Assembly (NCBI GenBank): GCA_048941015.1
Contig: JBHLNZ010000061.1
Coordinates: 1-19,041 of the forward strand
Reading direction: 5' to 3'
Source: Promethearchaeota archaeon
Lineage (GTDB): Archaea; Asgardarchaeota; Lokiarchaeia; Sigyniarchaeales; SOKP01
Length of the DNA stretch: 19,041 nt
The position numbers and the translations under genes are program-made. This document shows positions 5,057 to 11,615 of this stretch, one piece after another. Under the pieces are notes generated by a model, which saw only the letters and a program-made list of their open reading frames with translations, was not told the origin of the DNA and ran no database searches. Positions within the stretch are counted from its first letter, which is position 1, and the number at the start of each line of letters is the position of its first letter.

Positions 5057-6313
5057 CTATTTCAAAATATTTTTCTTTTTTTTATTTGTGCTTTTTGTAG
5101 TATTATTAGAATTTTTTTTAGGGAACAGTTTATAGTCAACTTCCTCATATGGTTTCATCGGTTTTAATGAATCTATTTGAAAATTACATACCCAACACAC
5201 ATTTTCTAAATCACTTAAAGCTTTAGAGCATTTTGAACAATAGAAAGTTCCACATTCCGGACACATAAAATTATTCCCACTTATTTTAGTCTTACATACC
5301 AAGCAAATTTTCTTTTCTTTGGATACTGTTACTTCTTCTTCAGTTAGCTTCTGGGGTCTAGTGAATATACCCAAAACATCAGTTTTTATTTTTTCATCTA
5401 CCTGTATTGATTTAGAAACTATGCTTGACCGTGTATGTTTAATTATAAGATAAAAAAGGGTATACACATATGCAGCTAAAAAAAAAAATTCCAGAATAAG
5501 TTGCCACTCGAGAGAAAAAATAATATCAAGCACTATAATATATATAATTAGAGGAATAGCTAAAAGTGCAAAAAGTACCCAAAACAATAATGCACGTCTT
5601 ATTATTTTAGGCTTGACTACTGTCGGTATAATTATAATACAACAACCTAGAATTAAGAGAAGTGGACTTAGTTCTAATGGATAAATATTAAGAGATTTAT
5701 GAGCTCTCAAAGCTAGAACGAGGGAAAACATGAATAATAAAAAACCAAATAAAAAGAATGAAGAAACAGCCTTAAACTCGAGACGTGACCTTTCCGTGTA
5801 ATGATATAAAACAATTGGAACTAAGATCACTAATCCCCCTAATATAAAAAAATTAAAAATTGGTCTTGCTACATCCAAGGGATCTGTAGAGATTGAGGGA
5901 AAAATAATTACTAAAATAGTAAATATCCCAAATGCAATTGTAAAAGCAAATTTTGTGCGTTTGAATATCACATCAAAAGCTAAAACAAAAAACATTCCTC
6001 CTAATCCCAATATAGCATTACTTATTATTTCAAGAATAATATAGATTGATGAAAAGTTTTCATAATCACCATAAAATATAATATTATCAATATTAAATGA
6101 AACTGGAATTTGAAGAACTTGAATGAAAGTAATAACTAAACTAGAGGCAAATCCGAGAGGTAAACTAGCTAATCCAAACATAATGATTTTTTCACTGAAT
6201 ATCTCTCTCTTCCTTCCTTTAATTATAAAGTATACTCCACATATTAACGTTAAAGTTATTGCGATTCCCCATATGAATCGTTCATAAGTACTCCAAAGCA
6301 TTACATCTGCCAT
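5057..6313 (-). CDS. Membrane protein (about 9 TM) with C-terminal C4C4 RING-like double zinc finger
   Basis: Nine hydrophobic stretches, then RPQKLTEEEVTVSKEKK followed by CLVC-x10-CPEC-x4-CSKC-x10-CWVC. AGGAG RBS at 6323-6327. Confidence 0.8.
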   Translation of the reverse strand: MADVMLWSTYERFIWGIAITLTLICGVYFIIKGRKREIFSEKIIMFGLASLPLGFASSLVITFIQVLQIPVSFNIDNIIFYGDYENFSSIYIILEIISNAILGLGGMFFVLAFDVIFKRTKFAFTIAFGIFTILVIIFPSISTDPLDVARPIFNFFILGGLVILVPIVLYHYTERSRLEFKAVSSFFLFGFLLFMFSLVLALRAHKSLNIYPLELSPLLLILGCCIIIIPTVVKPKIIRRALLFWVLFALLAIPLIIYIIVLDIIFSLEWQLILEFFFLAAYVYTLFYLIIKHTRSSIVSKSIQVDEKIKTDVLGIFTRPQKLTEEEVTVSKEKKICLVCKTKISGNNFMCPECGTFYCSKCSKALSDLENVCWVCNFQIDSLKPMKPYEEVDYKLFPKKNSNNTTKSTNKKKKNILK

Positions 6314-6432: not shown

Positions 6433-7242
6433 TTAGATAAAAAAATCAGTTAATTTTCTTTGTTGGTTAAAACTTTTGAATGGCAGTTTTAATCTCGTCT
6501 TAAGTAGGTTGACAGATTCTGGTGCAAATCCCATAAAATGATTATTTACTATAATAAATATTTCATATATCTCATGATCTTTTCGAAAGGTGTCTACTTT
6601 TTCAATTAAATCTCTAAGTATATTTTCTTGTTCTCTCTGAACTCGGTTAAAAACATTCAACTCACGATTTCCAATTAATCGAATATAATAATACAGTTGT
6701 TTAGGTAGATAATAAGCTTCTAAATCAGGTTTATAAGTTGTTCCTAAAATTTTCTCTTTACCATCAATAAATTTGTTTAATATTTCTGGTTTAAACCAAG
6801 AATTATCTCGAAACTCAAAAATGTATTTTAATCTGTCATTTAACGGTATCTCATTAATCAAGTAACTTAATTTTTGAAGATGCTCTTCAGAATAATGAAA
6901 CCAAGGAGGAAATTGAAATAAATACCCAAACATTTTCTCTTCTAAGGGTTTTATTCTGTAAAAGAACTGATCAATTTGATTATCAATCTCGGATTCGTGT
7001 AATTTGTGAGTAATTTCTTGCCATACTTTTACTATAAAACGAAATTGTTTTGGAACCTTTGAGAACCAATTAGTTACCATACTAACTGTAGGTAAATTAT
7101 AAAATGTAGAATTTATTTCAACAATATCAAAAAATTGTGAATAGTAATCTAATTGAGCAGTCGATTCAATTGATTTTGGATAGAAAGGACCAACCCAATC
7201 TTTATAATTCCATCCAGCACATCCAATCTTAATCTGAACCAT
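6433..7242 (-). CDS. DUF72 (YecE-like) TIM-barrel protein with C-terminal PIP box
   Basis: Family motifs IGCAGWNYKDWVGPFYP, VEINSTFY, F.VK…ITH, LFQFPPWF, EFR..SW, YIRLIG, NNH..G.AP. C-terminus QRKLTDFF. Likely start is ATG 7242 (MVQIKIG); the ORF track extends it to 7305. Confidence 0.92.
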   Translation of the reverse strand: MVQIKIGCAGWNYKDWVGPFYPKSIESTAQLDYYSQFFDIVEINSTFYNLPTVSMVTNWFSKVPKQFRFIVKVWQEITHKLHESEIDNQIDQFFYRIKPLEEKMFGYLFQFPPWFHYSEEHLQKLSYLINEIPLNDRLKYIFEFRDNSWFKPEILNKFIDGKEKILGTTYKPDLEAYYLPKQLYYYIRLIGNRELNVFNRVQREQENILRDLIEKVDTFRKDHEIYEIFIIVNNHFMGFAPESVNLLKTRLKLPFKSFNQQRKLTDFFI

Positions 7243-7326
7243 ATCATCTAACATATTTAAAAAATTTTTTAAATAATACTTCAAATGTGTTAAGAATTTA
7301 ATCATTAAAATAAATTTCAGTTATAA

Positions 7327-7338: not shown

Positions 7339-7514
7339 ATTATATTATTTTTAATAATTAAGATTGATTTAAAATTTAAAACACGAAATATTTTATAAGA
7401 AAGACTTTGATTATTTATATACAATAATTAAATCCTCTACAATTTTTATAAATTGAAAAATACAAAACTAAAGAGTAATAATTTTTTAATATAACGAAGA
7501 TTGGGTGAATTTAA

Positions 7515-8177
7515 TTGTCGATAGATTGGGAGAAAGCTGAGGAACGCCCTGAAAAAAAGCAGAGTGTTGAAGGAAGGATTCTATTAGATCTGAGGGCAAA
7601 GGTTAACGAATTAGAAAGAGAATTAATAAATACTAAAAAACAATTGAAAAAGACTGATGAAGAATTAAGAGAAACCAAAAGCAAATTGTCAGGCAGAGAA
7701 AAAAGCCTTACCCGAATGACAGAGAAATTCTCTTCAGCAAAGAAAAGTTTAGATGATGTAGCAGAACAAAAACTAAGTGTTGATATTGAATTAACTAAAC
7801 TAAAACCACAAGTCTCAGATTTTGAGAATGATTTATCAGTTGCTAAAGCAAAAATAATAGAACTAGAAGGAGAGCTAAAATTCACAACAGAGAAAATCTC
7901 AGAGTTGGAACAAAAAATTACTTTCAAAGAAAAAACCATTGAGACCCAAAGAGGAGATATTAAGAAAAGAAATGGGGATATAGATTTATATAAAGAAAAG
8001 TTAGAATTAAATCAGAAAGAAGTGGAAGATCTGTCAAGTAAAATAAGGGATCTTGAGACACAATTATCAGAACTAGAATCTTCTCCTGAAATTCTACAAA
8101 AGATTAAAGACACTATGGTTCACAAAGGCTTTCTTTCAGATAAAGAGCTCGAAGATATATTAAATGAGTTTAGTTAA
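7515..8177 (+). CDS. Coiled-coil protein, paralog A (conserved head, ~165-aa rod, conserved KGFLSDKE tail)
   Basis: TTG start with GGTGA RBS at 7504-7508; near-continuous heptad pattern; both termini closely match 8302..9033. Confidence 0.85.
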   Translation: MSIDWEKAEERPEKKQSVEGRILLDLRAKVNELERELINTKKQLKKTDEELRETKSKLSGREKSLTRMTEKFSSAKKSLDDVAEQKLSVDIELTKLKPQVSDFENDLSVAKAKIIELEGELKFTTEKISELEQKITFKEKTIETQRGDIKKRNGDIDLYKEKLELNQKEVEDLSSKIRDLETQLSELESSPEILQKIKDTMVHKGFLSDKELEDILNEFS

Positions 8178-8301
8178 ACCATTCTATTAGAAATATTATT
8201 TAAATCAAAAATTATTATATATAACCAAAAGTATATTGTAATATATTTTGAAATTTAAGAATTGTAGAAAGATAAATTAGTAAATAAAAGGTGAATAATT
8301 T

Positions 8302-9033
8302 TTGTCCGTCGATTGGGAACGTGCAAGAGAAAAACCAGATAAAAAGCAAAGTGTTGAAGGACGATTTTTAATAGATCTAAGAACTAAGATTAATGATTTA
8401 GAACAAAAATTAAAGAATTGTGAAGCAAAGCTCGAAAGAACTACAAAAGATTTAAATGAAACTAGGGAAAAATTAGCTCATGTTGAGAAAGATTTAAAAC
8501 AAAGAAATGATGAACTTGAGTCAATTAAAAAGGATATGGATGGCGTAAAAAAAGAAAAAGAGAATGCTGACTCAGAAATGGGGAGTTTAAAATCAGAAAA
8601 GTCGGATTTAGAAAAGAAACTTAATGATTCTAATGAAAAGATTTCTGATATGGAAATAGAACTTAAAAAGTTAGAAGAAATGGATATTTTAAAAGAAGAT
8701 ATGGAACAGAGAGAGAGAGAGCTAGAAGCTGTTAAAAAAGATTTACAACAAACGATTTCAGATAAATATGTTGAAATTGAGAGTTTGAAGAATGATCTCA
8801 ATAAAATTATTAACGATAAAGAAGCTGAAATAGTAGATCTTAAGAATAAGTTTGATGGAAAAACAAATGAAGTTGAGGCTTTAGGTCTCAAGATTAAATC
8901 ACTTGAAGACTACATCGCAGAATCGAAAGCAGCACCTCAAGTGATCGAAGATATAAAGGAAATGATGGCTCATAAAGGATTTCTTTCAGATAAAGAATTT
9001 GATCAGTTATTGGAAAAGAACCTAAACCAATAA
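8302..9033 (+). CDS. Coiled-coil protein, paralog B (conserved head, longer rod with an 18-aa repeat, conserved KGFLSDKE tail)
   Basis: TTG start with AGGTGA RBS at 8289-8294; TATA-like TTATATATAA near 8215-8223; termini match 7515..8177. Confidence 0.85.
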   Translation: MSVDWERAREKPDKKQSVEGRFLIDLRTKINDLEQKLKNCEAKLERTTKDLNETREKLAHVEKDLKQRNDELESIKKDMDGVKKEKENADSEMGSLKSEKSDLEKKLNDSNEKISDMEIELKKLEEMDILKEDMEQRERELEAVKKDLQQTISDKYVEIESLKNDLNKIINDKEAEIVDLKNKFDGKTNEVEALGLKIKSLEDYIAESKAAPQVIEDIKEMMAHKGFLSDKEFDQLLEKNLNQ

Positions 9034-9121: not shown

Positions 9122-10429
9122 ATGATCTATATAAAAAACTCCATTATGTTATTACAAACAATTTCTACGGAACAATTTTATGAATTTTTTATAAAAGAAT
9201 TAGTATCTCTCTTTTGTGGATTTTTAATAGGTATTGAAAGAACACGAGCTCGAAAAATGTTTGGTGCTCGAGACCACATTGCTTATGCATTGCTTTCGAC
9301 AACTTTAATCATTCTATACGAGGATTTCATAACTGATATTGGTTTCATCTTAATTATTTTAGTTTTTGGAGCAATGGTGGCCTTTCTCTCAATTGGAAGT
9401 GTATATCGCCTTTTTCATACCCAAGAACCCGGTTATACTTCCACAATATCGATGTTGCTGGCAATCGTAACAGGAATTTTAAGTTATTATCTTCCTTATC
9501 TTGCTATTTCAATATCGGTTATATTTCTAATAATATTGTCAACTAAAAAGGAATTTGAAAAGATTAGGGGATTGCAACAAATTGAATGGACTGGAACTGT
9601 CGAATTTATTGCAATTGTTATTTTACTATTTCTTTTAATTCCTGATATTGATATTTTAGGAATTCAAATTCGCTCTATTATTATAATTTTCATCACAATC
9701 TTAGCGATTAAATATTTTAGTTATTTCTTTCTAAAAAGTTCCACTAAACATAATTTATACTACATATCATTTTTAGGGGGATTTGCTCATAGTGAAGCAA
9801 CCTCAGTAGAGTTAGCGAAATCTGGAGCATCTTCTTCATCAATTTGGCTTGTGATACAAACAATGCTACTTAGGATGATTTTAATTGTATTTTTAGGAGC
9901 ATTTAATCTATTTATATATTCACTATTCCCTTTATTAGCAACATCCATTATTGGTTTGATTGGAGCCTTTTTAATTCTAAGAAAAAAAGAAACAAGTTTA
10001 TCTCTAGCAAGCGTAAAAAATCCTTTATCATTGAAAAGTGCTCTAATTTTCTCTGGAACTTATCTCTTAGCGGTAATATTAGCCTTAGGTTTGCAAACCA
10101 TCTCGTTAAATATAGGAGAGATAAATTACTTTTTGTTTTACGTTATTGCATTCATAATTGGATTAATTTCTGGAGGTGCATCATCCTTATTTATTGCTAC
10201 AATATATACTCTATCATTAGTTAATATAGCAAATGCTTTAATAATGCTCGCAATTGGCTTGTCCGCAGCTATTATAAATAAAATATTTTATTCTACGAAA
10301 AATTTACATCCAAACAAGAATAAAAAAGTCTATGCTATCCACTTATTAATTTATCAAGTAATAACTATATCTCTATTAATAATTTTCACTTTATTAACAA
10401 TTAGTTTCTTTAATCTACCATTTTTTTAG
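9122..10429 (+). CDS. MgtC/SapB-family membrane protein with DUF4010 domain
   Basis: GFLIGIER…FGARDH (MgtC-like N-terminus), PGYTS, FLGGFAHSEATS (DUF4010-like), NPLSLKSALIF. Alternative start ATG 9146. Confidence 0.8.
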   Translation: MIYIKNSIMLLQTISTEQFYEFFIKELVSLFCGFLIGIERTRARKMFGARDHIAYALLSTTLIILYEDFITDIGFILIILVFGAMVAFLSIGSVYRLFHTQEPGYTSTISMLLAIVTGILSYYLPYLAISISVIFLIILSTKKEFEKIRGLQQIEWTGTVEFIAIVILLFLLIPDIDILGIQIRSIIIIFITILAIKYFSYFFLKSSTKHNLYYISFLGGFAHSEATSVELAKSGASSSSIWLVIQTMLLRMILIVFLGAFNLFIYSLFPLLATSIIGLIGAFLILRKKETSLSLASVKNPLSLKSALIFSGTYLLAVILALGLQTISLNIGEINYFLFYVIAFIIGLISGGASSLFIATIYTLSLVNIANALIMLAIGLSAAIINKIFYSTKNLHPNKNKKVYAIHLLIYQVITISLLIIFTLLTISFFNLPFF

Positions 10430-10508: not shown

Positions 10509-11615
10509 ATGGTTGAAATTACTTGGAAAAATAAAGAAGATATTACAGATAATATACAGAATTTGAAAAATTATTATAAAGACAAGTTTAATATAATTAA
10601 GATTAAATCAGATCTTTATGAAGAATTTAAATTTATCCAAAATAGTGAAAAAATTTGGAGAAATAAATTATTTTGGGGAGATAATTTAGAAGTTTTACTG
10701 TACCTATTAAATAATTTTGAAGAAAAGATAAATCTAATTTATATAGACCCCCCTTTTTTTACAGGAGTTAATTATCACATAGATATCACTGAAGATGATA
10801 ATAACTATAATACTGTAGCTTACTATGATCATTGGAACAAAGATTTGGATTCATATTTACAAATGCTTTATGAAAGAATAATTTTATTAAGAGAATTATT
10901 AGCAAAAGAAGGTTTATTATTTCTACATTTAGATTGGCATGCTAGTCATTATATAAAACTCATTCTTGATGAAGTTTTTGGAGAAAAAAGATTTGTAAAC
11001 GAGATTATATGGTATTATTATAATAAATATTCTGCCGGTAAAATGAATCTACCTCGTGCTCATGATAATATCTTGGTTTATTGTAAATCTGAAAATCATA
11101 CTTTTAATGAAATTAGAACCCCACGAAAAGAGCCAATAAAACAATTAAAGAGAGAAATGGTTAATGGAGTTTTGAAGAATGTAAAAGATGAGCATGGGCA
11201 TGTAGTTTACAGAATAGTCACTGATAAAAAGCTAGATGATGTATGGCGTATTCCATGTATGCAACCTGCTTCAAAAGAATGGGTGGGATTCCCCACACAA
11301 AAACATCATGACTTACTTAGCAGAATTATTGAACTAGGGAGTAGTGAAAACGATCTTATAGCAGATTTTTTCTGTGGTTCAGGAACAACCCTTTTGGAAG
11401 CAACAAAATTAAATAGGAAGTGGATTGGATGTGATATCTCTGAGTATTCAATTTACCTTACAAGTAAAAGAATTATAGATTATTTGAAATCAATTCCTAA
11501 AAGTAAAAGCACTTTTTATCCTTTTGAAGTCATTTCACATTTAAATTCAAAACAAAAAAAAATCATTCGATCTGGTTTTTTCGAAAAAGAATTAAAATTT
11601 AAAAGAAAAAAATAA
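10509..11615 (+). CDS. Site-specific DNA amino-methyltransferase (N6-A/N4-C, beta class), no adjacent restriction gene
   Basis: GDNL, LIYIDPPF (motif IV), LDEVFG…NEIIW, DDVW, FPTQK, DFFCGSGTT (motif I), RKWIGCD. Motif IV precedes motif I, which is the beta order. Confidence 0.92.
   Translation: MVEITWKNKEDITDNIQNLKNYYKDKFNIIKIKSDLYEEFKFIQNSEKIWRNKLFWGDNLEVLLYLLNNFEEKINLIYIDPPFFTGVNYHIDITEDDNNYNTVAYYDHWNKDLDSYLQMLYERIILLRELLAKEGLLFLHLDWHASHYIKLILDEVFGEKRFVNEIIWYYYNKYSAGKMNLPRAHDNILVYCKSENHTFNEIRTPRKEPIKQLKREMVNGVLKNVKDEHGHVVYRIVTDKKLDDVWRIPCMQPASKEWVGFPTQKHHDLLSRIIELGSSENDLIADFFCGSGTTLLEATKLNRKWIGCDISEYSIYLTSKRIIDYLKSIPKSKSTFYPFEVISHLNSKQKKIIRSGFFEKELKFKRKK

What the first reader, a model, noticed from the sequence alone, without database searches (positions are those of the whole stretch)
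7515..9033. Tandem paralogous head-rod-tail coiled-coil genes: candidate heteromeric filament/scaffold system
Seen: two adjacent genes share a near-identical ~35-aa head (MSIDWEKAEERPEKKQSVEGRILLDLRAKVNELE vs MSVDWERAREKPDKKQSVEGRFLIDLRTKINDLE). They also share a tail (PEILQKIKDTMVHKGFLSDKELEDIL vs PQVIEDIKEMMAHKGFLSDKEFDQLL). The long heptad rods between them have diverged in sequence and length (220 vs 243 aa overall). Neither has a TM segment, signal peptide or Walker motif, and both use TTG plus a GGTGA RBS. Established: conserved rod ends around a variable coiled coil are how intermediate-filament proteins and tropomyosin assemble end to end, and keratins are obligate two-paralog heteropolymers. 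Inference: these could form a heterodimeric cytoskeletal or tethering filament in an Asgard archaeon, with the KGFLSDKE helix-turn-helix (SHOCT-like by eye) as the oligomerisation or partner-binding cap. Homology to eukaryotic proteins is not claimed.
Basis: partly seen in the sequence, partly recalled or inferred. Interest (0 to 1): 0.8.

Follow-up and report, generated by a model that had tools for sequence, protein, structure and literature searches.

The report
Lokiarchaeial paired coiled-coil rod proteins
Two neighbouring genes of a Loki-type Asgard archaeon encode sister rod-shaped proteins of an undescribed family; their shared N-terminal head also occurs on rods with quite different tails, so they look more like modular linkers than like a self-assembling two-part filament.

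Summary
Genes A (7515-8177) and B (8302-9033) are full-length paralogs (39% identity, E 2e-45). Head identity is 24/35, the tail core HKGFLSDKE is identical, and the rods are 35% identical. Both use TTG after GGTGA.

The pair is old. It stands in the same order in about 50 species loci, the upstream copies form one clade and the downstream copies (plus four single-copy rows) its sister group.

The filament reading is only partly supported:
- The head occurs in 159/161 Lokiarchaeia genomes and in 1/239 (marginal) other Asgard genomes.
- The KGFLSDKE tail occurs only in this family (120/134 genomes, 0/26 elsewhere in the class).
- The same head sits on rods ending in the Loki "Zn domain" (also the tail of Loki gelsolin) or in other modules, so the head's ligand is probably not the tail.
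- The length difference B minus A ranges from -9 to +30 aa.
- Heptad charge pairs favour homodimers in 42/42 species.
- No IF, tropomyosin, crescentin, SHOCT or SMC membership test is met.

Best reading (confidence 0.45): parallel coiled-coil adaptors with a class-wide docking head and a family-specific cap.

This scan found the same family before in another genome (e1-5701608) and read it the same way.

Side finding: 84% of family genes use non-ATG starts (ATT 50%), while neighbouring genes use almost only ATG.

The parts
7504..7508 (+). Shine-Dalgarno GGTGA of gene A, 6 nt before the TTG start
   Evidence: Read directly from the sequence. GGTG(A) lies 5-9 nt upstream of the start in nearly all 106 family genes.
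7515..8177 (+). Gene A (upstream 'U' paralog), 220 aa: head, coiled-coil rod, KGFLSDKE cap
   Evidence: It belongs to the U clade (SH-aLRT 97). Length is exactly 220 aa in 22 of 46 U orthologs.
7515..7619 (+). Head of A (aa 1-35): xS-I-D-W..E..P.KK..VEGR.LLDLR.K
   Evidence: Head profile A3 has W5 and P12 invariant. It is found in 159/161 genomes of the class and 1/239 elsewhere in the phylum.
7677..7757 (+). Conserved mid-rod patch of the U clade (KLSGREKSL ... EKFSSAKKSLD, aa 55-81)
   Evidence: Per-column conservation in 46 U orthologs. R61 occupies a heptad d position in 41/42.
8085..8165 (+). Tail cap of A (aa 191-217, PEILQKIKDTMVHKGFLSDKELEDIL)
   Evidence: Tail profile A2 has K, G, F, D, E invariant. 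It occurs only in family f1: 120/134 genomes, 0/26 in other families of the class.
8178..8301 (+). A-B intergenic spacer (124 bp) with a TATA-like TTATATATAA at about 8215-8224 and the SD GGTGA at 8290-8294
   Evidence: TATA-like words peak 70-79 nt upstream of the D start in 41 pairs. An own promoter for B is suggested, not shown.
8302..9033 (+). Gene B (downstream 'D' paralog), 243 aa: head, coiled-coil rod, KGFLSDKE cap
   Evidence: D clade (SH-aLRT 94). AF2 models. The Atlas holds this sequence letter for letter.
8302..8406 (+). Head of B (aa 1-35)
   Evidence: AF2 with MSA: helix 5-10, loop 11-19, main helix from residue 20, pLDDT 75-87.
8710..8790 (+). Conserved mid-rod patch of the D clade (ERELE.VKKDLQQTISDKYVEIESLK, aa 137-163)
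   Evidence: These are the most conserved rod columns of the D clade.
8935..9015 (+). Tail cap of B (aa 212-238, PQVIEDIKEMMAHKGFLSDKEFDQLL)
   Evidence: AF2: the main helix ends at K225, then a GFLS turn, then helix 230-241.

Best explanation
A and B are two subfunctionalised members of a Lokiarchaeia-specific family of modular coiled-coil adaptors or tethers.

Each most likely forms a parallel, in-register coiled coil with itself, giving a rod of about 190-205 residues (roughly 28-30 nm). This rod presents three things:
- At one end, a paired N-terminal head: a short helix, a loop with invariant W5 and P12, and the start of the rod (G20, LL23-24, R27, K29). The head is conserved across the whole class and is the common docking module.
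- Along the rod, a paralog-specific conserved patch.
- At the other end, a small helix-turn-helix cap (KGFLSDKE) that is an innovation of this one family of Lokiarchaeia and replaces the Zn-ribbon docking tag carried by the class-wide sister protein.

The proteins would thus link whatever binds the head to whatever binds the cap or patch.

Shown: the architecture, the phyletic pattern, the age of the duplication and the modularity of the ends. Inferred: oligomeric state, docking function and partners. Near-cognate start codons suggest low or regulated expression.
For: Architecture and conservation:
- One continuous helix with structured ends in the AF2 models.
- A continuous heptad register over 13 heptads with Leu at position a.
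- The head is the best-conserved part, with 65% mean column identity over 106 sequences.

Phyletic pattern and modularity:
- Head present in 152/154 genomes of the order and 159/161 of the class, absent from the rest of the phylum.
- The same head sits on rods ending in a Zn ribbon (including closed genomes G044, G055, G050), in the KGF cap, or in other C-termini.
- That Zn ribbon is homologous to the C-terminus of a two-domain gelsolin, matching the Loki 'Zn domain' of PMC9433394.
- The tail is confined to family f1 and was not found on other architectures.

Oligomeric state:
- Homodimer g-e' pairs score U-U +1.67 and D-D +3.24 against U-D +1.14. The heterodimer beats both homodimers in 0/42 species.
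- Rod length differences are variable.

Context:
- Each paralog has its own conserved mid-rod patch.
- No conserved neighbours outside closely related genomes.
- 84% non-ATG starts against almost only ATG in neighbouring genes.
Against: - No partner has been identified.
- No multimer model could be run and no experiment exists.
- The charge-pair test is crude. It ignores a-a'/d-d' core pairing, and the core is unusually polar at d in heptads 1-6, which in other systems can specify hetero-partners.
- Paralogs are retained in tandem in about 95 species, and triple arrays recur in other genera. This would also fit co-assembly.
- The head could be an oligomerisation module rather than a docking module.
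Confidence: 0.45

Rival explanations
1. One reading: A and B form an obligate heterodimer that polymerises end to end through head-tail overlap. This would give an intermediate-filament-like or tropomyosin-like cytoskeletal filament.
For: - An ancient tandem pair kept in fixed order, with two sister clades and mirrored sub-clades.
- Conserved ends and a variable rod.
- Tandem arrays of 2-3 paralogs recur in other genera for both tail types.
- Sub-threshold hits to the Filament and Rod_CreS profiles.
- The U rod length is fixed at 220 aa in 22/46 species.
Against: - The head is unchanged when the tail is a Zn ribbon or another module, so head-tail docking is unlikely.
- D minus U length varies from -9 to +30 aa, incompatible with both ends being in register.
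- There is no electrostatic heterodimer preference in 42/42 species.
- Lengths are not quantised in steps of about 39-40 aa.
- Filament scores 17.6 / 22.9 bits against a cutoff of 40, and Rod_CreS 27.9 / 22.7 against 100.
- Weak start codons are unusual for an abundant structural protein (inference).
Confidence: 0.18
2. The head is the receptor for the Loki 'Zn domain' tag. Under this model:
- Head-rod-Zn proteins would chain head to tail.
- Zn-tagged proteins, including two-domain gelsolin, would dock on any head.
- A and B, which have a head but no Zn tag, would act as terminators or adaptors that redirect such complexes through their KGF cap.
For: - Both modules are terminal.
- The head is confined to Lokiarchaeia.
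- The Zn domain is expanded there: 5-12 copies per genome in families f1 and f2, 1-3 in the other three Lokiarchaeia families sampled, and 0-2 (usually 1) in other Asgard families.
- The Zn tag sits on gelsolin and on several otherwise unrelated rods.
- PMC9433394 found no binding of the Zn domain to F-actin and proposed an unknown cellular partner.
Against: - The evidence is purely correlative.
- A single Zn-domain relative also exists in Asgard families that lack the head.
- No covariation or docking model has been obtained.
- G000 itself has 7 Zn-domain ORFs but no head-rod-Zn gene in its assembly.
Confidence: 0.12
3. A chromosome or nucleoid-associated SMC-like protein. Some public records name relatives 'chromosome segregation ATPase', and the genes lie near a DNA methylase and a DUF72 gene.
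For: - JGI names on fragments.
- Weak SMC, Rad50 and ASRP hits that cover only coiled-coil segments.
- Neighbours are an N6_N4 methylase and DUF72.
Against: - SMC scores 39-42 bits against a cutoff of 567, and there is no ATPase head or hinge.
- The neighbours are not conserved in other genera of the family.
Confidence: 0.03

Closest known systems
Head-rod-Zn proteins of Lokiarchaeia, ending in the Loki 'Zn domain' described for Loki2DGel / MKD1-2DGel gelsolins (Akil et al. 2022, PMC9433394)
   Same: The N-terminal head is the same: profile A3 scores E 1e-14 to 1e-25. Both have a coiled-coil rod of variable length. The head-rod-Zn form is present in the same genomes as a third, unlinked paralog in most species of the genus.
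   Different: The C-terminus is a CPxC...CxxCGYEF zinc ribbon instead of the KGFLSDKE cap, and the rod is more polar (Q/S/T/N rich). This form is class-wide, whereas the A/B type is confined to one family. The head-rod-Zn protein itself has not been characterised, and the paper describes only the Zn domain.
Intermediate-filament proteins (Pfam PF00038) and bacterial crescentin (PF19220)
   Same: A head-rod-tail layout, paralog pairs, and coiled-coil dimers as building blocks. This describes what they might work like.
   Different: - Profile scores are far below the cutoffs.
- The rod is about 200 aa and continuous, against about 310 aa with linkers.
- There are no rod-end consensus motifs.
- Paralog rod lengths are unequal.
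- There is no heterodimer charge design.
Tropomyosin
   Same: A short, uninterrupted parallel coiled coil of similar length to yeast Tpm1 (199 aa; general knowledge). End-to-end overlap is the classical model for conserved ends.
   Different: - It has structured non-coiled head and tail modules.
- Lengths are not quantised in actin-sized steps.
- No significant tropomyosin profile hit appears in the lists shown.
- The head is shared with proteins bearing unrelated tails.
DivIVA / GpsB-type scaffolds (general knowledge, not a sequence match)
   Same: A small conserved N-terminal module on a parallel coiled coil that recruits partners, with a separate C-terminal association module.
   Different: The head-only Pfam scans gave no DivIVA hit (no family for A's head, only a sub-threshold Pox_A_type_inc match for B's). 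The head is net neutral, with no exposed hydrophobic/basic membrane loop evident. It is archaeal and class-specific.
SHOCT domain (PF09851 / PF20612)
   Same: A short C-terminal helix-turn-helix with a G-h-h-S/T-x-x-E-F/L pattern by eye.
   Different: PF09851 hits 0/106 tails and PF20612 hits 1/106 at E 0.11. The commonest sub-threshold hit is FumaraseC_C (50/106, best E 1.3e-3, score below the curated cutoff). That is a motif resemblance only.

Membership tests
Intermediate filament (PF00038) | Profile match above the gathering score | tested here: not met
   17.6 bits (A) and 22.9 bits (B) against a cutoff of 40.
Intermediate filament (PF00038) | Rod of fixed length, equal in partner chains, segmented by linkers and a stutter | tested here: not met
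   AF2 shows a continuous helix 20-225 and one heptad register over 13 heptads. D minus U length ranges from -9 to +30 aa.
Obligate two-paralog heterodimer (keratin type I/II logic) | Interchain g-e' charge pairs favour the hetero over the homo pairing | tested here: not met
   Net attractive pairs are UU 1.67, DD 3.24 and UD 1.14. The hetero pairing beats both homo pairings in 0/42 species. This is a crude test.
Tropomyosin | Coiled coil from end to end, with length quantised by the actin repeat (about 39-40 aa) | tested here: not met
   U lengths are 220-221 and 235-243 aa and D lengths are 225-258 aa, with no 39-40 aa steps. The ends are not coiled coil.
Crescentin rod (PF19220) | Profile match above the gathering score | tested here: not met
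   27.9 and 22.7 bits against a cutoff of 100.
SHOCT (PF09851, PF20612) | Profile match of the C-terminal cap | tested here: not met
   0/106 and 1/106 (E 0.11) tails at max E 10. No hit for the window's own tails.
SMC / Rad50 ('chromosome segregation ATPase') | Walker A/B ATPase head and hinge, and an equivalog score | tested here: not met
   No Walker A motif. Scores are 39-42 bits against a cutoff of 567, over coiled-coil segments only.
Lokiarchaeial head-rod family (this report; undescribed) | N-terminal head [IV]-D-W..x..P.K..x..G..LL.LR.K directly followed by a coiled coil | tested here: met
   A and B score 82.6 and 83 bits against head profile A3. The same head occurs in 159/161 genomes of the class.
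Lokiarchaeial head-rod family, KGF-cap subfamily | C-terminal ...KGF[LIV][ST]D[KR]E... helix-turn-helix cap | tested here: met
   77 and 82.6 bits against tail profile A2. K, G, F, D and E are invariant in 106 sequences.
Self-assembling filament (any kind) | Polymerisation of the purified protein or filaments seen in cells | not testable with these tools
   This needs expression, EM or multimer modelling. No multimer prediction is available here.

The most novel reading that the evidence does not exclude
The class-wide head is the missing receptor for the Lokiarchaeial 'Zn domain' tag that ends Loki gelsolin and many rods. Lokiarchaeia would then have a lineage-specific plug-and-socket system of coiled-coil rods that organises actin regulators. 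A and B would be its Zn-less adaptor or terminator subunits, kept at low dose by AUU/UUG initiation.
Probability: 0.12. Interest if true: 0.8.

Novelty: new variant of a known kind. Interest (0 to 1): 0.45.

Why it matters
Lokiarchaeia are among the closest cultured relatives of eukaryotes, and how their actin cytoskeleton and protrusions are organised is an open question. The evidence here points to three things:
- a head module conserved in essentially every genome of the class;
- the head fused through rods to interchangeable end modules;
- one of those modules being the orphan 'Zn domain' of Loki gelsolin.

That makes this family a concrete, testable candidate for a lineage-specific scaffolding or targeting system. 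The cultured strains carry the head-rod-Zn form, so the head's partner can be sought experimentally.

The pair in this window is one family-specific elaboration of that system. As it stands it is an uncharacterised coiled-coil family with no demonstrated function, and the scan had already met it in another genome.

Tried and rejected
- Pfam and NCBIfam scans on whole proteins, heads and tails gave only sub-threshold coiled-coil noise.
- The exhaustive HMMER search with the full-length profile was swamped by giant coiled-coil proteins (20,735 hits). It added only some divergent 270-310 aa members.
- Word-based searches for the tail and head in longer proteins returned few hits (18 and 9). One reason is that many public gene calls are truncated fragments that lack the head, probably because of the non-ATG starts.
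- ESM Atlas searches on head and tail gave nothing at 0.9 or above.
- PDB sequence searches on head, tail and Zn domain gave nothing significant.
- Foldseek against PDB with the AF2 model gave nothing at E <= 0.001.
- Gene neighbourhood as a functional clue was rejected. DUF72, MgtC/DUF4010 and the methylase are syntenic only among close relatives, and other genera have unrelated neighbours.
- Homology between the KGFLSDKE cap and the 'GGFASEER' stretch before the Zn ribbon: hhalign aligns them, but with E 0.056 and probability 1% this is not significant.
- A genome-wide ATT-start habit in G000 was not seen (1.4x enrichment).
- Literature searches found no paper on this family.
- The careful ML tree did not finish in time, so the quick tree was used.

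Full report
**Observation.**
The window holds two same-strand ORFs, A (7515..8177, 220 aa) and B (8302..9033, 243 aa). Both start at TTG, 6-7 nt after a GGTGA. BLASTP aligns them over the full length at 39% identity, E 2e-45. Identity is 24/35 in the head, 35% in rod residues 36-120 and 14/27 in the tail, where the core HKGFLSDKE is identical. There is no Walker A motif and no hydrophobic segment.

AlphaFold2 was run without and with a 106-sequence alignment. It gives a short N-terminal helix (5-10), a loop (11-19), one continuous helix (20-225), a GFLS turn and a last helix (230-241), with mean pLDDT 88-90. The long antisense ORFs (7511-7939, 8478-8891) overlap the K/E-rich coiled-coil genes almost entirely and are probably not genes.

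**What family it is.**
Pfam and NCBIfam give only sub-threshold coiled-coil hits:
- Filament: 17.6 / 22.9 bits against a cutoff of 40.
- Rod_CreS: 27.9 / 22.7 bits against 100.
- SMC: 39-42 bits against 567.

The isolated heads and tails hit nothing. SHOCT PF09851 matches 0 of 106 tails, and the commonest sub-threshold match is FumaraseC_C, a motif resemblance only. PDB sequence searches, Foldseek and the ESM Atlas give nothing. No paper on the family was found. Public gene calls for relatives are often truncated fragments. A few carry the name 'chromosome segregation ATPase' or 'chromosome segregation protein', which looks like a coiled-coil artefact.

**Distribution and history.**
- The window's own genome (3.59 Mb, 95% complete) has only these two copies.
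- All 66 loci recovered from species-representative genomes are Promethearchaeota/Asgard MAGs.
- About 50 of them carry the pair in the same order and on the same strand. The stop-to-stop gap is 55-263 bp, and the spacer from stop to assigned start has a median of 155 bp. One locus is interrupted by 3.5 kb.
- In a quick ML tree all 50 upstream copies form one clade (SH-aLRT 97). The downstream copies, together with four single-copy rows, form the sister group (94). The two show mirrored sub-clades, and eleven other single-copy rows branch outside both.
- The duplication is therefore old and the order has been kept. It is not a recent lineage-specific event.

**The ends have different ranges.**
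- A head-only profile (A3) finds the head in 152/154 genomes of the order and 159/161 of the class, across all seven families. It finds it in only 1 of 239 genomes in the rest of the phylum, at a marginal E-value.
- A tail-only profile (A2) finds the KGFLSDKE cap only in the window's own family: 120/134 genomes and 11/13 genera, against 0/26 in the six other families of the class.
- A word-based search for the tail on longer proteins recovered only this family.

**The head is modular.**
- Most genomes carry a third, unlinked head-bearing protein of 270-400 aa. It has the same head, a more polar coiled coil, and a C-terminal zinc ribbon (CPMCG ... EDKxKVLSYVGHxPxYAKK.CKKCGYEF). This includes three closed genomes of the sister family.
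- That ribbon is homologous to the C-terminus of a two-domain gelsolin in closed genome G044: PF00626 at 1.2e-25, with the invariant residues shared in alignment A5. It therefore corresponds to the 'Zn domain' that Akil et al. described. They found it at the C-termini of Loki gelsolins and unrelated proteins, with no F-actin binding and an unknown partner (PMC9433394).
- In other genera the head is fused to yet other C-termini with no Pfam match.
- Tandem arrays of three head-rod-KGF genes or three head-rod-Zn genes occur with unrelated neighbours.
- The DUF72, MgtC/DUF4010 and N6_N4-methylase neighbours of the window pair are therefore lineage synteny, not functional partners.
- G000 has seven Zn-domain ORFs on other rods but no head-rod-Zn gene in its assembly.

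**Tests of the heteromeric-filament idea.**
1. If heads docked on tails, replacing the tail by an unrelated fold should go with a change in the head. It does not: within one lineage, the heads of KGF-type and Zn-type proteins are nearly identical.
2. A parallel in-register heterodimer with both ends aligned needs equal rods. U is 220 aa (22/46) or 235-243 aa, D is 225-258 aa, and D minus U ranges from -9 to +30 aa.
3. The heptad register is continuous over 13 heptads, with a = 30+7k. Position a is strictly Leu, and position d is polar in heptads 1-6. Counting g-e' charge pairs in 42 species gives net +1.67 (U-U), +3.24 (D-D) and +1.14 (U-D). The heterodimer beats both homodimers in no species. 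This is a crude measure, but it shows no heterodimer design.
4. Lengths are not quantised in the 39-40-residue steps expected of a tropomyosin-like ruler.

In favour of some co-assembly remain the long retention of tandem paralogs and the recurrent arrays. Each paralog also has its own strongly conserved mid-rod patch: KLSGREKSL/EKFSSAKKSLD in U, and ERELE.VKKDLQQTISDKYVEIESLK in D. These look like partner-binding surfaces.

**Best explanation.**
A and B are subfunctionalised coiled-coil adaptors or tethers, most likely homodimeric. They present a class-wide docking head at one end and a family-specific helix-turn-helix cap at the other, with paralog-specific patches along the rod. Architecture, phyletic pattern and modularity are shown. 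Oligomeric state, docking function and partners are inferred. Confidence is 0.45.

The rivals are:
- a more specific and more novel version in which the head is the receptor of the Zn-domain tag (0.12). It is supported only by the terminal position of both modules and by the Zn-domain expansion in the head-bearing lineages (5-12 copies per genome in families f1 and f2);
- an SMC-like chromosomal role (0.03).

**Side finding.**
Of 129 unique KGF-type genes, 64 start at ATT, 23 at TTG and 20 at ATG. The rest use ATA, GTG, GTT or ATC. Most follow a GGTG(A) SD-like motif at a few nt, and some have an in-frame stop within two codons upstream. Neighbouring gene families in the same loci use ATG almost exclusively: 52/52, 46/46, 44/44, 34/34 and 36/42. 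G000 shows no genome-wide ATT habit. Near-cognate initiation is thus a trait of this family. It argues, by inference, for low or regulated expression rather than for an abundant structural polymer.

**Precedent within this scan.**
The same family was already followed up in another genome (e1-5701608), with the same 'shared head, swappable tail' reading, and the Zn tail was treated in e1-5663417. I reproduced both points here with independent searches.

**Verdict.**
This is an undescribed, Lokiarchaeia-specific variant of the coiled-coil scaffold theme. Its function is unknown, and it offers a testable link to the Loki Zn-domain/gelsolin system. Interest is 0.45.

Noticed in passing
window 7515-7517 and 8302-8304; family loci L022-L087: Family-specific near-cognate start codons. 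Of 129 KGF-type genes, ATT accounts for 50%, TTG 18% and ATG 16%. Most follow a GGTG(A) SD-like motif, and some have an in-frame stop within two codons upstream. Neighbouring gene families in the same loci use ATG almost only. This recalls AUU-based translational autoregulation of bacterial infC (general knowledge).
   Followed up: partly
L099, L104, L105, L126 (G044), L128 (G055), L129 (G050): A third paralog, head + polar coiled coil + C-terminal Zn ribbon, is found across Lokiarchaeia, including closed genomes. It is not in the G000 assembly, which has only two head matches.
   Followed up: yes
G000:C64:105421-105585, C123:48775-48906, C15:33629-33769, C122:27886-28026 (L133-L136): The window's genome has several other rods (106-396 aa) ending in the same Zn domain but with unrelated N-termini. 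One has a proline-rich N-terminus and a Q-rich coiled coil. The A5 profile finds 7 Zn-domain ORFs in G000.
   Followed up: partly
L168 (G086:C3), L169 (G065:C2), L170 (G156:C5): Other genera of the same family carry tandem triples of head-rod-KGF genes, or of head-rod-Zn genes, with neighbours unrelated to those in the window.
   Followed up: partly
L146, L150, L156 (G060, another family of the class): Head + rod + globular C-terminal domain, 380-395 aa in total, with no Pfam match. This is a further tail module of unknown fold.
   Followed up: partly
L104:2134-2373 and relatives (alignment A6) versus the window tails: Head-rod-Zn proteins of this family carry 'GAGGFASEER' just before the Zn ribbon, which resembles 'HKGFLSDKE'. 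hhalign pairs the two motifs but without significance (E 0.056).
   Followed up: yes
window 7511-7939 (-) and 8478-8891 (-): Long antisense ORFs (142 and 137 aa) lie almost entirely within the K/E-rich coiled-coil genes A and B. They are probably not genes.
   Followed up: no
window 6433-7305 (-), 9122-10429 (+), 10509-11615 (+), 5057-6313 (-): The neighbours are DUF72 (2.4e-46), an MgtC + DUF4010 membrane protein, an N6_N4 DNA methylase (2.5e-45) and a polytopic membrane protein with a weak RING-like finger. They are syntenic with the pair only in closely related genomes.
   Followed up: partly
public protein records P0004-P0009, P0013-P0028: Many public gene calls for this family are fragments of 94-209 aa that lack the head, probably because gene callers skip the ATT/TTG starts. 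A few JGI records name relatives 'chromosome segregation ATPase' or 'chromosome segregation protein'.
   Followed up: partly
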